The notes beneath the pieces are model-generated. The model ran no database searches. It was given only the letters and a program-made list of their open reading frames with translations, and was not told the DNA's origin. Below, one piece after another: positions 7,166 through 10,381 of a stretch of 64,000 nt of DNA. Positions within the stretch are counted from its first letter, which is position 1, and every line of letters begins with the position of its first letter. The position numbers and the translations under genes were made by a program. Source of the DNA: Candidatus Bipolaricaulota bacterium. GTDB taxonomy: Bacteria > Bipolaricaulota > Bipolaricaulia > UBA7950 > UBA9294. The stretch is taken from positions 1,077-65,076 of the forward strand of contig JAHITR010000021.1 of assembly GCA_018817505.1 (NCBI GenBank). The letters are read 5' to 3'.

Positions 7166-10100
7166 TTACTCGTCCTCTGTCCTCGCGATGAGGCCACGTG
7201 CTCGAAATCGAGGGAGCACTGTGCCAGCAATAGGCAGCGTCATTCGATCGCCCAGCTGGAGTTCCTCAGACAGTGTCGCCGTCTGCTGCCCGCGCGGCGG
7301 ATTAATCAATGCGAGTGTTGTGCCAGGCTCTGTGGCTAGCTGATTGACAAGCGCCAATCCGACCTGCACGTCACTGAGGCTTACACAACTGGTGACATGT
7401 CCAATGACGGTTCCAGCACGATCAAGAACCGCGGCACCCGCTTGTACTCGACGCGCACCAGCCTCAATCTCAAATCGAATGAGGGACCGTCTGCGCTCGA
7501 CGTAGTCGGCGATGCATTGGGCTCGACCGATGAAGAAGGGCTTGTGGAGCTTCACATATGAGCCGAATCCAGCTTCAAATGGATTCATCGCGTATGGGCC
7601 GGCCAGTTCATGGCCATAGAGAGGGAGTCCAGCTTCAGTGCGGGTGGAGTCGCGAGAAGCCAGTCCGCACGGAAGCAGTCCATAGGCTTTGCCCACTTCT
7701 AGCAACCGATTCCATAGCCAGACGACGGAAGCGCCACCGACGTAAATCTCGTAGCCTTCTTCTTCTCCCGTGTACCCGGTCCGCGCGATGATCAATTGAT
7801 GCCCCTCGACGTCCATTTCACTGAATTCAGTTCGTTGCAGAGCAGCCAAAGCTCTCTTCTGATCCGCGGACAGCAACTCAGCAAGAATCCTCGGGCTAGC
7901 AGGTCCTTGTAAAGCAATATCTGCGACGCCGCGAGTCTTCTTCAGGTCTGTAATCTGGACTCTTTTGGGGCGACGACTTGCGATTTCTCGATCGATGGCA
8001 TAGATGCCGTCATTCACGCCATTGAGCCACTTCCAATCCTTGCGCTCGTTGGCGGCATTGACAACGACGAGATAGCGATCCCAGGCGCGGCGATAGATGA
8101 AGATGTCGTCGAGAACCTTGCCATCGATGTCCAATAGATACGCATATTGCGACTGGCCATCTTGAAGCCACGAAACATAGCTGGAACAGACCGTATTGAG
8201 GAACGCGGCAGCGTGGGGGCCAGAGATCTGCAATACTCCCATGTGGCCAAGATCATAGAGCCCAGCCGCTTCACGAACAGCTCGATGTTCCTCAAGCGCG
8301 GAGCTATACCAAACAGGCATCTCCCAGCCAGCGAATGGAACCAGTCGAGCCCCCAAATCCTTGTGGGCCTGAACAAGCGGCGTCCGTTCGAGCTCCCCGC
8401 CCTCAGCTTCTTCCCAGAGCCACGGCGTATGGTCGATTGTTCTATGAGCTACGGTGAGTTTCGATTGAGCGACAAAATACGGTTTCTCAAGATTGAATCT
8501 CTCTGGGGATCGAGCATAAACATCATTGATCGAGAGCCCGTTGCTGGATCCGAGAATGGGAATGCTCAGCCACTCCTGTCCGATCGGGGGCACGTCGGCT
8601 TCCGCAAGGATCTCAACCACCGCAGGGCCCTGAACTTTGCGGAATACGTCTCCTTCATCAAATATGATATAGCCATCCGCCAATCCGGATAGCCATTGTC
8701 GTACGATGTCTTCAGATTCAGCTGGAGCGAGAACGAGGAAGTCATCTGCCTCAAGTTGACCAATTACGACCTCAGACAGAAGCATTCCCGCCTCATCAAA
8801 CAAGTAGGTGCGAAGCGAATCCCCATTTTGGAACGACGACAGATCAGAAGGAGTCGCCTCCTCCAGCAGAGCTTGGATCCTACCACCATACATGCGGAAG
8901 ATGGCCCATGAAGATTCTTCATTGGCAAAAGAGGGGGTCTCGGCATAGAGGGTTGGATCAATGCGGGTTATCAATGCGCGAACGTCGCGCTTGGCCTGCT
9001 CAAGAACGGAAACGGCAATCTTGCCACGCGAAAGCGGACTGGAAAGGCCCTGATAAGTGAACGGGCGAATACCGCGCAAAACACGGGCAATGATGCCAGC
9101 GAGCAGTTTCATTTCTGTCTTGCCCATGCCGCGTTGCGTGATCCACGGAGTTCCCAATCGAATGCCGTGGGCATCGGCTGCGCTGGTGTCTCCTGGTAGC
9201 GTGTTTTTGTTGCACACGATGCCTGCCAAGTCGAGAATCCGAGACGCAATCTCACCCATCATTACGAAACCTGTCTCAGACTCGATGGGGCGCAGGTCAA
9301 CGAGCAGCAAATGGGTATTGGTTCCCCCATAGGCCAAGGTCAGGCCTTCGGCCTCAAGCGAGGCAGCAAGGAAGCCTGCATTCTCAACGATGCGGCGCTG
9401 CAGATCCTGGTACTCAGGCTGCTGTGCCAGCTTGAGTGCGACCGCCAGTGCAGCGAATTTATTGACGTGGGGTCCTCCCTGCTGCCCTGGGAAGATGGCG
9501 CTGTCTACGGCTGCAGCAATTTTGGAGTCTGTGGATAGAATGACAGCGCTACGCGGGCCGCAGAGCGTCTTATGAGTGGTGAAATTGACGACATCAGCGA
9601 TGCCAATCGGGTTCGGATATTGCCCCCCGATGATGAGTCCCGCTGTGTGCGCGACATCGGCAAGGAGGATGGCTCCCACAGAGTCAGCGATTTCGCGAAA
9701 CGCATGCCAGTCGGGCTGCCAAGGATAGGAGGTGAAGCCGCCAATGATCATTTTGGGGCGATGCTTCTCAGCAAGCTTGCGAATGGCTTCGTAGTCGAGC
9801 TGTCCCGTATTTGGGTCGACCGCATAGGAAACGATGTTGTATCGCTTGCCAGTAATGTTGAATTCGGATCCGTGTGTCAAGTGTCCGCCTTCAGTCAATG
9901 CCATACCCATGACCGTATCTCCAGGCGAGACAAAGGCATCGTAGACCGCCAGATTGGCCGCTGCTCCGGACAAGGCTTGCACGTTGGCGAAGATGCGCTC
10001 TGCCGGATACTCGTCTGTAGCGAAACATTCAGCAGCGCGGCGACCTGCGAGCGACTCCACGACATCTGCGAATTCGGTGCCTTTGTAGAATCGGCGATCG

Positions 10101-10381
10101 GCATATCGGCGGTAGCTGGCCAGTTGCACGTCCAGTTCGGCCAACTCATCTGGGGACGCGTTCATCATTGCTTTTCGCGGATAGCCTTCTGCATAGACAC
10201 TGGTGAATACTGAGCCTAGTGCTTCTCGAACAGGTTTGGGTGTCAAGCTCTCCGAGGGAATGAGAATGATTTTCTCACGTTGTCGGCGTTCCTCAGCTGC
10301 GATCAAGGCTGCCGTTTGTGAATCGATGTCAAGGATGCATTTGTCTGAATACGGGCTCATGTTGACTTCCATCTCCTTCAT
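7166..10381 (-). CDS. fusion protein: serine hydroxymethyltransferase (GlyA) domain + glycine-cleavage T-protein/aminomethyltransferase (GcvT) domain(s)
   Basis: The N-terminal half has SHMT hallmarks (...KIILIPSESLTPKPVREALGSVFTSVYAEGYP..., PLP-fold region ...VNFTTHKTLCGPR...). The C-terminal ~450 aa has GcvT hallmarks (...LVPFAGWEMPVWYSSALEEHRAVREAAGLYDLGHMGVLQISG..., ...ARTGYTGEEGYEIYV...), with an extra GcvT-like segment between them. It is one uninterrupted ORF. Start chosen at ATG 10379-10381 (MKEMEV...); an alternative ATG 9 nt downstream has an AAGGAG RBS. Confidence 0.8.
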   Translation of the reverse strand: MKEMEVNMSPYSDKCILDIDSQTAALIAAEERRQREKIILIPSESLTPKPVREALGSVFTSVYAEGYPRKAMMNASPDELAELDVQLASYRRYADRRFYKGTEFADVVESLAGRRAAECFATDEYPAERIFANVQALSGAAANLAVYDAFVSPGDTVMGMALTEGGHLTHGSEFNITGKRYNIVSYAVDPNTGQLDYEAIRKLAEKHRPKMIIGGFTSYPWQPDWHAFREIADSVGAILLADVAHTAGLIIGGQYPNPIGIADVVNFTTHKTLCGPRSAVILSTDSKIAAAVDSAIFPGQQGGPHVNKFAALAVALKLAQQPEYQDLQRRIVENAGFLAASLEAEGLTLAYGGTNTHLLLVDLRPIESETGFVMMGEIASRILDLAGIVCNKNTLPGDTSAADAHGIRLGTPWITQRGMGKTEMKLLAGIIARVLRGIRPFTYQGLSSPLSRGKIAVSVLEQAKRDVRALITRIDPTLYAETPSFANEESSWAIFRMYGGRIQALLEEATPSDLSSFQNGDSLRTYLFDEAGMLLSEVVIGQLEADDFLVLAPAESEDIVRQWLSGLADGYIIFDEGDVFRKVQGPAVVEILAEADVPPIGQEWLSIPILGSSNGLSINDVYARSPERFNLEKPYFVAQSKLTVAHRTIDHTPWLWEEAEGGELERTPLVQAHKDLGARLVPFAGWEMPVWYSSALEEHRAVREAAGLYDLGHMGVLQISGPHAAAFLNTVCSSYVSWLQDGQSQYAYLLDIDGKVLDDIFIYRRAWDRYLVVVNAANERKDWKWLNGVNDGIYAIDREIASRRPKRVQITDLKKTRGVADIALQGPASPRILAELLSADQKRALAALQRTEFSEMDVEGHQLIIARTGYTGEEEGYEIYVGGASVVWLWNRLLEVGKAYGLLPCGLASRDSTRTEAGLPLYGHELAGPYAMNPFEAGFGSYVKLHKPFFIGRAQCIADYVERRRSLIRFEIEAGARRVQAGAAVLDRAGTVIGHVTSCVSLSDVQVGLALVNQLATEPGTTLALINPPRGQQTATLSEELQLGDRMTLPIAGTVLPRFRARGLIARTEDE

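What the first reader, a model, noticed from the sequence alone, without database searches (positions are those of the whole stretch)
7166..10381. Single-ORF fusion of serine hydroxymethyltransferase and glycine-cleavage T-protein domains
One uninterrupted ~1070-codon ORF carries an SHMT-type PLP domain followed by an extra GcvT-like segment and a full aminomethyltransferase (GcvT) domain with the FAGWEMPV.Y and TGYTGE..YE motifs. Both enzymes act on glycine and use the tetrahydrofolate/5,10-methylene-THF pair (SHMT: Ser + THF <-> Gly + CH2-THF). A covalent fusion would channel the one-carbon unit between the glycine-cleavage and serine-synthesis steps. These are normally separate genes (glyA, gcvT), and I am not aware of this fusion being characterised. 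Frameshift or assembly artefacts must be excluded.
Basis: partly seen in the sequence, partly recalled or inferred. Interest (0 to 1): 0.55.

Follow-up and report, generated by a model that had tools for sequence, protein, structure and literature searches.

The report
Natural SHMT–glycine-cleavage T-protein fusion enzyme
One real gene joins two folate enzymes that are normally separate, serine hydroxymethyltransferase and the glycine-cleavage T-protein; the fusion is widespread in two groups of uncultured anaerobic bacteria but has never been studied biochemically.

Summary
An uninterrupted minus-strand ORF (7166-10360, 1064 aa; the most likely start is 7 codons inside the finder's) encodes three parts. 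These are a complete SHMT, a degenerate partial copy of a GcvT sub-domain, and a complete GcvT. It is not an artefact. More than 120 close clusters and at least 61 distant full-length representatives share the architecture. At least 142 species-level genomes carry it, mainly Bipolaricaulota and Anaerolineae/Chloroflexota. Substitutions across the junction fall mostly on third codon positions. Both active sites are conserved in 59-62 of 62 diverse members. In an Anaerolineae MAG the fusion sits in the gcvT slot of a gcvT-H-PA-PB operon. The annotation table of the closed Acetothermia Ran1 genome uses one gene for both glyA and gcvT, and lists gcvH, gcvPA, gcvPB and lpd separately. The best reading is a bifunctional SHMT/T-protein that shares the THF/CH2-THF pair between two sites. 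Channelling between the sites is plausible but untested. Databases label these proteins as one enzyme or the other, and I found no paper that describes the fusion. In Bipolaricaulota an unannotated gene of about 380 aa, with a CofC-like fold, is always fused-adjacent upstream. Moderate interest: a new variant of known enzymes.

The parts
7166..10360 (-). Fusion gene (1064 aa plus TAA stop). In-frame alternative ATGs lie at 10372 and 10381.
   Evidence: There are no internal stops, and M8 of the finder's ORF is the conserved start.
8945..10360 (-). SHMT unit (residues 1-472), including a C-terminal hairpin-and-helix extension of the kind found in long SHMTs (PRK13580 type). PLP lysine K264 is at 9569-9571.
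   Evidence: Pfam SHMT 1.2e-114 and NCBIfam PRK00011 431.5 bits against a cut-off of 335. Aligns with solved SHMTs. Fold TMt 0.93 to 1KKJ. Catalytic residues are conserved.
10097..10171 (-). Family-typical insertion of about 25 aa in the SHMT active-site loop, between GYPRK and RRFYKG.
   Evidence: HMMER splits the SHMT match into two stretches at this point. The insertion is conserved in the family.
8537..8923 (-). Degenerate partial duplicate of the GcvT sub-domain (residues 480-608). It has lost the HMG motif and the catalytic Asp, and carries the family motif GLADGYIIFD.
   Evidence: BLASTP E = 2e-9. (hhalign 99.8%, E = 1.8e-27, aligned to residues 702-823). (matching order of helices and strands).
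8396..8536 (-). Variable linker containing the conserved KPYF(V/I)(A/G)Q motif. Most Chloroflexota-type relatives carry long insertions here.
7241..8395 (-). Complete GcvT (T-protein) unit (residues 656-1040). FAGWEMPVWY is at 8306-8335, catalytic Asp D752 at 8105-8107, and TGYTGEEEGYE at 7748-7780.
   Evidence: Pfam GCV_T 4.7e-85. TIGR00528 251.4 bits against a cut-off of 235.85. Colinear with 1YX2 residues 4-344 of 365. TMt 0.87. Residues conserved.
10329..11492 (-). Upstream partner gene (387 aa, unannotated family). It overlaps the fusion start by 32 nt. The N-terminal ~210 aa have a CofC/FbiD-like nucleotidyltransferase fold.
   Evidence: no Pfam, NCBIfam or PDB hit; 780 homologues. (immediately upstream in every Bipolaricaulota-type locus that has upstream sequence). 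(model and fold matches).
7073..7106 (-). Terminator-like hairpin (14-bp stem followed by a T-rich tail) about 60 nt after the fusion's stop codon.
   Evidence: This is a consensus scan only.
11556..11583 (-). Terminator-like hairpin upstream of the partner gene. Together with the one above it frames partner plus fusion as a two-gene unit.
   Evidence: This is a consensus scan only.

Best explanation
The gene encodes a bifunctional enzyme. The N-terminal unit is a PLP-dependent serine hydroxymethyltransferase (Ser + THF <-> Gly + CH2-THF). [quoted passage not shown] Between them sits a non-catalytic remnant of a duplicated T-protein sub-domain, which probably acts as a spacer or scaffold. In Bipolaricaulota this protein is probably the cell's only SHMT and only T-protein. 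It works with separately encoded GcvH, GcvPA/PB and Lpd. The two sites use the same THF/CH2-THF pair. In the net reaction 2 Gly <-> Ser + CO2 + NH3 + 2[H], the folate product of one site is therefore the folate substrate of the other. The same holds for Ser + NH3 + reduced H-protein -> Gly + aminomethyl-H-protein. Fusion fixes a 1:1 ratio and keeps the sites close, and it may hand the labile CH2-THF directly from one site to the other. Shown here: the domain identities, the conserved active sites, the recurrence, the link to gcv operons, and the separate H, P and L genes. Inferred: both activities, the direction of flux, the channelling, dimerisation through the SHMT unit, and the scaffold role of the middle segment.
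For: Domain identity above curated cut-offs. End-to-end alignment with solved SHMTs and T-proteins. A confident model (pLDDT 84.8, pTM 0.82) whose halves match SHMT (TMt 0.93) and GcvT (TMt 0.87). In 62 diverse fusions, 59-62 keep the SHMT residues K264, D235, H238, H160, R401, N386, E58, Y56 and Y92 and the GcvT residues D752, N768, TGYTGE and R903. L072 has the order fusion-gcvH-gcvPA-gcvPB; in L074 gcvPB abuts the fusion; in L061 gcvPA-PB lie beside two fusion copies. No second glyA or gcvT appears in any locus or in the window. The Ran1 closed-genome table uses BARAN1_v2_0410 ('glyA/gcvT') for both EC 2.1.2.1 and EC 2.1.2.10, and lists gcvH 0562, gcvPA 0563, gcvPB 0564 and lpd 0087 separately. 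SHMT plus T-protein plus H-protein is a documented working trio that makes aminomethyl-H-protein from serine and ammonium (PMC11736057).
Against: No activity was measured. In this window and in all Bipolaricaulota loci, no gcvH, gcvP or lpd lies within 10 kb. Most Chloroflexota loci are also unlinked to GCS genes. The gcvT equivalog score clears its cut-off only narrowly (251.4 against 235.85), and GCV_T_C is below Pfam's threshold. When serine and glycine are both broken down to CH2-THF, as Hao et al. propose for this phylum, both sites consume THF, so there would be nothing to channel. I could not read the sequence of BARAN1_v2_0410; that it is the orthologous fusion is inferred from its double annotation and from a protease as its neighbour.
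Confidence: 0.8

Rival explanations
1. The C-terminal unit is not a true T-protein. Instead it is an H-protein-independent folate domain, like those of dimethylglycine oxidase, sarcosine oxidase, DmdA or YgfZ, which captures a one-carbon unit (formaldehyde) released by the SHMT domain.
For: T-like folate domains fused to other enzymes are known and do match weakly (DMGO 1.2e-17, SoxA 2e-16, TMAO demethylase 1e-21). The catalytic Asp and the folate residues are shared by those paralogues, so their conservation does not discriminate. No gcvH lies nearby in Bipolaricaulota.
Against: The scores for those paralogue models are far below their cut-offs (for example soxA 131 against 1164 and DmdA 101 against 410), and no YgfZ model hits, whereas the gcvT equivalog passes. 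The best solved matches are genuine T-proteins (1YX2 at 1.9e-63). The SHMT domain keeps its own folate residues, E58 and N386, so it has no need for an external acceptor. The fusion replaces gcvT in a gcvH-PA-PB operon and is the only gcvT listed for Ran1.
Confidence: 0.07
2. Only one half is catalytically relevant. The other half has become a regulatory or structural module, for example an SHMT domain that senses glycine or serine, or acts as a folate-independent aldolase.
For: The family carries SHMT-specific changes: SEN->SES, PHSG->PLSG, KTLRGPR->KTLCGPR, and a ~25-aa insertion in the active-site loop. The middle T-like copy shows that domains in this protein can degenerate.
Against: All catalytic and cofactor-binding residues of both halves are kept in 59-62 of 62 diverse members, while the truly degenerate middle copy has lost them. 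The SHMT core is the most conserved part of the protein (0.86 mean column identity). No other glyA is listed for Ran1.
Confidence: 0.08
3. The long ORF is an assembly or sequencing artefact (a chimera or a missed frameshift) that joins adjacent glyA and gcvT genes.
For: None found. Read data cannot be inspected with these tools.
Against: The same architecture and length occur in the 120 listed close clusters from JGI, ENA, NCBI and Logan. They occur again in 61 distant full-length representatives and in 142 species genomes, including contigs of 1.7-6 Mb. Differences from six orthologues concentrate at codon position 3 in the junction, middle and linker segments.
Confidence: 0.01

Closest known systems
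Bacterial serine hydroxymethyltransferase GlyA (e.g. Geobacillus stearothermophilus 1KKJ/2VMV, Thermus thermophilus 2DKJ, E. coli 1DFO)
   Same: Fold (TMt 0.90-0.93), 38-45% identity, the PLP lysine in TTHKT, and all catalytic and folate residues.
   Different: About 25-aa insertion between GYPRK and RRFYKG, a C-terminal extension, family-specific substitutions (SES, PLSG, KTLCGPR), and about 590 further residues attached at the C-terminus.
Glycine cleavage system T-protein GcvT (B. subtilis 1YX2, T. maritima 1WOO, E. coli 3A8I/1VLO, human 1WSR)
   Same: Full-length colinear match, fold TMt 0.87, the catalytic Asp, the TGYTGE and RD motifs, and a score above the equivalog cut-off. It occupies the gcvT position in an Anaerolineae gcv operon.
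   Different: The N-terminus is not free; it is tethered to an SHMT through a degenerate extra T-like sub-domain. There is one extra residue after TGYTGE.
Oxidase or demethylase enzymes fused to a T-like folate domain (dimethylglycine oxidase 1PJ5, sarcosine oxidase alpha 2GAG, dimethylglycine dehydrogenase 4P9S, TMAO demethylase 9Q59)
   Same: The design principle is the same: an enzyme that handles a one-carbon unit is covalently joined to a GcvT-fold folate domain.
   Different: Those enzymes have FAD or other N-terminal domains, do not use H-protein, and their T-like domains are remote paralogues. Here the partner is SHMT, which binds folate itself, and the T unit is of the genuine GcvT type.
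Unfused SHMT + T-protein + H-protein acting together (glycine-serine interconversion; defined [FeFe]-hydrogenase maturation, PMC11736057)
   Same: The same two catalysts exchange CH2-THF/THF. [quoted passage not shown]
   Different: There they are separate proteins mixed in solution; here they form one polypeptide.
'glyA/gcvT' gene BARAN1_v2_0410 of Acetothermia sp. Ran1 (Hao et al. 2018, PMC6092417, supplementary table)
   Same: Same phylum. A single locus is assigned both EC 2.1.2.1 and EC 2.1.2.10, and the neighbouring gene is a protease, as in related loci.
   Different: It appears only in an annotation table, and the paper does not discuss the fusion. I could not read its sequence.

Membership tests
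Serine hydroxymethyltransferase (GlyA; PF00464, NF000586) | Profile score above the curated cut-off | tested here: met
   PF00464 383.5 bits (cut-off 27). NF000586 431.5 bits (cut-off 335).
Serine hydroxymethyltransferase (GlyA; PF00464, NF000586) | PLP Schiff-base lysine in the T-T-H-K-T motif, plus the residues that bind the PLP ring and phosphate (bsSHMT K226, D197, H200, H122, S93/G94) | tested here: met
   K264, D235, H238, H160 and S131/G132 are present here and in 59-62 of 62 diverse fusions.
Serine hydroxymethyltransferase (GlyA; PF00464, NF000586) | Residues for folate-dependent catalysis and substrate carboxylate binding (bsSHMT E53, Y51, Y61, N341, R357) | tested here: met
   E58, Y56, Y92, N386 and R401 are conserved. 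The roles of these residues come from the bsSHMT mutant structures listed and from established knowledge.
Serine hydroxymethyltransferase (GlyA; PF00464, NF000586) | Fold-type I PLP enzyme fold | tested here: met
   Foldseek TMt 0.90-0.93 to solved SHMTs.
Serine hydroxymethyltransferase (GlyA; PF00464, NF000586) | Obligate dimer with shared active sites; measurable Ser/Gly interconversion | not testable with these tools
   Only a monomer model was made, and the low-confidence loops (57-60, 87-91, 157-169) lie in the SHMT unit.
Glycine cleavage T-protein (GcvT; TIGR00528, NF001567, PF01571 + PF08669) | Equivalog or subfamily profile score above the curated cut-off | tested here: met
   TIGR00528 251.4 against 235.85. 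NF001567 303.3 against 300. Both margins are narrow. PF08669 scores 20.7, below its cut-off of 25.9.
Glycine cleavage T-protein (GcvT; TIGR00528, NF001567, PF01571 + PF08669) | Full-length three-domain T-protein fold, colinear with solved T-proteins | tested here: met
   1YX2 residues 4-344 of 365 and 1WOO residues 2-339 of 364. TMt 0.87.
Glycine cleavage T-protein (GcvT; TIGR00528, NF001567, PF01571 + PF08669) | Catalytic Asp (E. coli D97 / T. maritima D96) and the folate-site motifs (N, TGYTGE, RD) | tested here: met
   D752, N768, T861-E866 and R903 are conserved in 59-62 of 62. Which residues matter comes from established knowledge of the E. coli, T. maritima and human structures.
Glycine cleavage T-protein (GcvT; TIGR00528, NF001567, PF01571 + PF08669) | Genomic association with gcvH and gcvP, with no other gcvT present | tested here: met
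   Met in relatives: L072 has fusion-gcvH-gcvPA-gcvPB, and L074 and L061 also show a link. For Ran1 the table lists gcvH, PA, PB and lpd elsewhere and a single glyA/gcvT gene. Not met within this 64-kb window or within 10 kb in Bipolaricaulota loci.
Glycine cleavage T-protein (GcvT; TIGR00528, NF001567, PF01571 + PF08669) | H-protein-dependent aminomethyl transfer to THF | not testable with these tools
   Needs an enzyme assay with lipoylated GcvH.
GcvT-like paralogues (YgfZ, DmdA, SoxA/DMGDH folate domain, TMAO demethylase, LigM/DesA) | Best or above-cut-off match to the paralogue's own model | tested here: not met
   soxA 131.5 against 1164, TMAO demethylase 133 against 1100, DmdA 101.5 against 410, LigM 58.6 against 580. 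No YgfZ model appears at E <= 0.01.
CofC/FbiD-type nucleotidyltransferases (upstream partner protein only) | Sequence-profile membership and fold | tested here: inconclusive
   No Pfam, NCBIfam or PDB sequence hit at E <= 10. The fold of the N-terminal ~210 aa matches 2I5E, 6BWG and 7P97 (TMt 0.65-0.72, 13-16% identity). This is a resemblance only.

The most novel reading that the evidence does not exclude
The fusion is a closed-loop, folate-retaining machine. Bound THF/CH2-THF shuttles between the two active sites, held in register by the degenerate T-like middle domain. The protein then acts as a serine-dependent aminomethyl-H-protein synthase (Ser + NH3 + reduced H-protein -> Gly + aminomethyl-H-protein) or its reverse. 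In these strict anaerobes that would feed glycine synthase and the reductive-glycine direction, and possibly the dithiomethylamine ligand of [FeFe]-hydrogenase. In Bipolaricaulota it would work together with the always-adjacent, unannotated partner protein with a CofC-like fold.
Probability: 0.15. Interest if true: 0.7.

Novelty: new variant of a known kind. Interest (0 to 1): 0.45.

Why it matters
SHMT and the glycine cleavage system are the two entry and exit points of glycine and serine into folate one-carbon metabolism. Their coupling underlies photorespiration and syntrophic or fermentative glycine metabolism. It also underlies the reductive glycine pathway that is being engineered for growth on formate and CO2. 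A natural covalent SHMT-T-protein found across whole lineages gives a ready-made test of whether CH2-THF is handed over directly between the two enzymes, and a candidate part for pathway engineering. It also has a practical annotation consequence. Pipelines name these proteins as only GcvT or only SHMT, so metabolic reconstructions of Bipolaricaulota and Anaerolineae can wrongly score one of the two functions as missing.

Tried and rejected

It was repeated with closer sequences (A4). Its two search patterns favour Bipolaricaulota-type sequences, so Chloroflexota are under-counted.

3. The cluster look-up of ten distant representatives returned no organism names. Names came instead from the third homologue search.

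4. Six literature searches were run. Four looked for an explicit description of the fusion and found none. One covered Bipolaricaulota and glycine cleavage, and one covered T-protein determinants. Only open-access text is covered.

5. I looked for gcvH, gcvP, lpd, folate-pathway or hydrogenase-maturation genes among the conserved Bipolaricaulota neighbours and in the window. None was found.

6. Model coordinates are not exposed to the scripting sandbox, so inter-domain contacts and the distance between the two folate sites could not be measured.

7. I considered and rejected three alternatives: an assembly artefact, a YgfZ/DmdA/SoxA-type C-terminal domain, and a pseudo-enzyme half. See the rival explanations.

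8. My crude ORF caller first missed the partner gene in many loci. This was corrected with tblastn.
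Full report
**Observation.** The window holds an ORF without internal stops at 7166-10381, on the minus strand. It has 1071 codons from the finder's ATG, and the maximal ORF extends to a TTG at 10654. In an alignment of 120 family members the first seven residues are not shared, and the eighth, a methionine, is about 98% conserved. The listed homologues are 1053-1077 aa long. The gene most likely starts at ATG 10360, giving 1064 aa with stop TAA at 7166-7168. 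AAGGAG and GGAAG purine-rich stretches lie just upstream. Pfam finds SHMT (1.2e-114), GCV_T (4.7e-85) and a weak GCV_T_C. NCBIfam places the N-terminal part above the SHMT cut-off (431.5 against 335). It places the C-terminal part just above the GcvT equivalog and subfamily cut-offs (251.4 against 235.85; 303.3 against 300).

**Not an artefact.** The 120 best clusters at 90% identity are 63-100% identical to the query. All are 1053-1077 aa long, all carry both Pfam domains, and they come from JGI, ENA, NCBI and Logan assemblies. An exhaustive search with only the fusion-specific middle region found 172 representatives at 50% clustering. Of the best 150, 61 are full length (1043-1339 aa). Eight of eight tested had the order SHMT, variable middle, GCV_T. 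A scan of species-representative genomes found 142 genomes that encode the middle region. Against six orthologues, nucleotide differences concentrate at codon position 3 in every segment, including the post-SHMT piece, the middle domain and the linker. Against L005, for example, the middle domain shows 0.09 at position 2 and 0.55 at position 3. The junction is therefore translated in frame and is under purifying selection in independent genomes.

**Anatomy.** Residues 1-472 form a complete SHMT. It is 38-45% identical to solved SHMTs, with TMt up to 0.93. It has an insertion of about 25 aa between GYPRK and RRFYKG. Its C-terminal extension is also covered by the long-SHMT model PRK13580. Residues 656-1040 form a complete T-protein. 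It is colinear with B. subtilis 1YX2 (residues 4-344 of 365) and T. maritima 1WOO, with TMt 0.87. No solved structure spans both halves (best TMq 0.37).

Residues 480-608 are a partial duplicate of the protein's own T-protein residues 702-823. BLASTP gives E = 2e-9. hhalign gives 99.8% probability and E = 1.8e-27, against 0.9% for an SHMT control. The order of helices and strands in the model also matches. This copy has lost the HMG motif, and SE replaces the catalytic DD, so it is very probably non-catalytic. Most distant relatives have long extra insertions in this region, and some of these look like a more complete second T-like copy (sequences printed). The Bipolaricaulota form therefore appears to be a trimmed version.

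**Active sites.** Across 62 diverse fusions, 59-62 keep the SHMT residues equivalent to bsSHMT K226, D197, H200, H122, R357, N341, E53, Y51 and Y61. The same number keep the T-protein residues equivalent to E. coli D97, plus the Asn, TGYTGE and RD motifs. The SHMT core is the most conserved part of the protein (0.86 mean column identity), followed by GCV_T (0.78). The family also has its own SHMT substitutions: SES for SEN, PLSG for PHSG, and KTLCGPR.

**Context and distribution.** The closest genomes are Bipolaricaulota/Acetothermia MAGs, for example L005 at 83% protein identity. Many MAGs labelled 'uncultured Thermotogae' share the same gene order. The fusion also occurs in Anaerolineae/Chloroflexota, mostly as a longer class of 1150-1250 aa, in one Spirochaetia MAG, and in Candidatus Aerophobetes. 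Some of these lie on contigs of 1-6 Mb.

In the Anaerolineae locus L072 the fusion is followed directly by GcvH (1.2e-40), GcvPA (4.8e-129) and GcvPB, so it sits where gcvT normally sits. In L074 a GcvPB C-terminal domain abuts the fusion's start. In L061 two tandem fusion paralogues lie beside gcvPA-PB. In Bipolaricaulota loci, in this window, and in several large Chloroflexota genomes, no GCS gene is nearby. No locus holds a second glyA or gcvT.

The supplementary annotation table of the closed Acetothermia sp. Ran1 genome lists gcvH (0562), gcvPA (0563), gcvPB (0564) and lpd (0087). A single gene, BARAN1_v2_0410 'glyA/gcvT', is used for both EC 2.1.2.10 and EC 2.1.2.1. Its neighbour 0411 is an ATP-dependent protease, which matches the Lon-like gene next to the fusion in L084. 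[quoted passage not shown] It does not mention the fusion.

**Mechanism.** The best-supported reading is a bifunctional SHMT/T-protein that is the only source of both activities in these organisms. It would work with free H-, P- and L-proteins. The two sites share THF/CH2-THF. In 2 Gly <-> Ser + CO2 + NH3, the folate product of one site is the substrate of the other. The same holds for Ser + NH3 + reduced H-protein -> Gly + aminomethyl-H-protein. That second reaction is exactly what separate SHMT and T-protein do together in the defined [FeFe]-hydrogenase maturation system (PMC11736057). Fusion guarantees equal amounts and proximity.

Direct hand-over of CH2-THF is an inference. It would bring no benefit if both sites ran in the CH2-THF-producing direction, as the Ran1 model assumes. 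Dimerisation through the SHMT unit follows from general knowledge of SHMTs and was not tested.

**Comparison and novelty.** Both halves meet every membership feature that could be tested for GlyA and GcvT. The paralogue models (SoxA, DmdA, TMAO demethylase, LigM, YgfZ) are not met. The design resembles the oxidase-plus-T-domain enzymes such as dimethylglycine oxidase, but the partner is a folate enzyme and the T unit is of the true GcvT type. Public pipelines name these proteins 'serine hydroxymethyltransferase', 'glycine hydroxymethyltransferase' or 'glycine cleavage system aminomethyltransferase GcvT'. Four open-access literature searches aimed at the fusion found no explicit description of it. 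I rate it a new variant of a known kind. It is real, widespread, tacitly annotated and uncharacterised. It is of moderate interest for one-carbon metabolism and for reductive-glycine-pathway engineering.

**Side finding.** In every Bipolaricaulota-type locus with upstream sequence available, a gene of about 380 aa lies directly upstream of the fusion, usually overlapping its start. In the window it is 10329-11492, with a 32-nt overlap. Identity between these partners falls as low as 30%. The gene was not detected in the eight Chloroflexota loci. It has no Pfam, NCBIfam or PDB sequence match even at E <= 10, and it has 780 homologues, all labelled hypothetical. Its confident model (pLDDT 88.7) has an N-terminal half with a CofC/FbiD-like nucleotidyltransferase fold (TMt about 0.7), and the C-terminal ~170 aa match nothing. 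Terminator-like hairpins bracket the pair. Its function, and any link to the fusion, are unknown.

Noticed in passing
window 10329-11492 (-); also L001 6250-7392, L003 8890-10044 and about 65 further loci: An unannotated ~380-aa gene family (no Pfam, NCBIfam or PDB sequence hit; 780 homologues, all 'hypothetical') lies directly upstream of the fusion in every Bipolaricaulota-type locus that has upstream sequence, usually overlapping its start. It was not detected in Chloroflexota loci. The N-terminal half has a CofC/FbiD-like nucleotidyltransferase fold, and the C-terminal ~170 aa match nothing.
   Followed up: partly
L061 8708-11947 and 14009-17254: An Anaerolineae MAG carries two tandem paralogous copies of the fusion (1079 and 1081 aa). 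A class I/II aminotransferase lies directly upstream, and gcvPA-gcvPB lie just downstream on the opposite strand.
   Followed up: partly
L087 5772-6965 and L061 7456-8676: A class I/II aminotransferase of about 400 aa sits immediately upstream of the fusion in both a Candidatus Aerophobetes MAG and an Anaerolineae MAG. This may be a recurrent serine/glycine-related pairing.
   Followed up: no
window 28351-43746 (-), 43782-45728 (-), 45877-54396 (-): Three consecutive very large ORFs for surface-type proteins. The first is 5131 aa with DUF11, CARDB and SdrD_B domains. The second is 648 aa. The third is 2839 aa with about 25 Big_9/cadherin-like repeats.
   Followed up: partly
L008-L013 and many other loci: Dozens of species-representative MAGs titled 'uncultured Thermotogae bacterium' share the partner-fusion pair and the rpsF-ssb-rpsR gene order of Bipolaricaulota loci. 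The organism label is probably a placeholder and not a sign of presence in Thermotogota.
   Followed up: no
window 15939-18047 (+), conserved in L003 2945-5056: An ADP-forming acetyl-CoA synthetase-type protein (CoA_binding, Succ_CoA_lig and ATP-grasp_5 domains) lies in conserved synteny a few kb from the fusion. This is consistent with an acetate-forming fermentative lifestyle.
   Followed up: no
window 55320-56996 (+) and 61322-62620 (+): Cyclic-di-GMP signalling proteins (PAS-GGDEF-EAL and HAMP-GGDEF) flank a NosD/beta-helix protein fused to an OpuAC substrate-binding domain (58837-61290).
   Followed up: no
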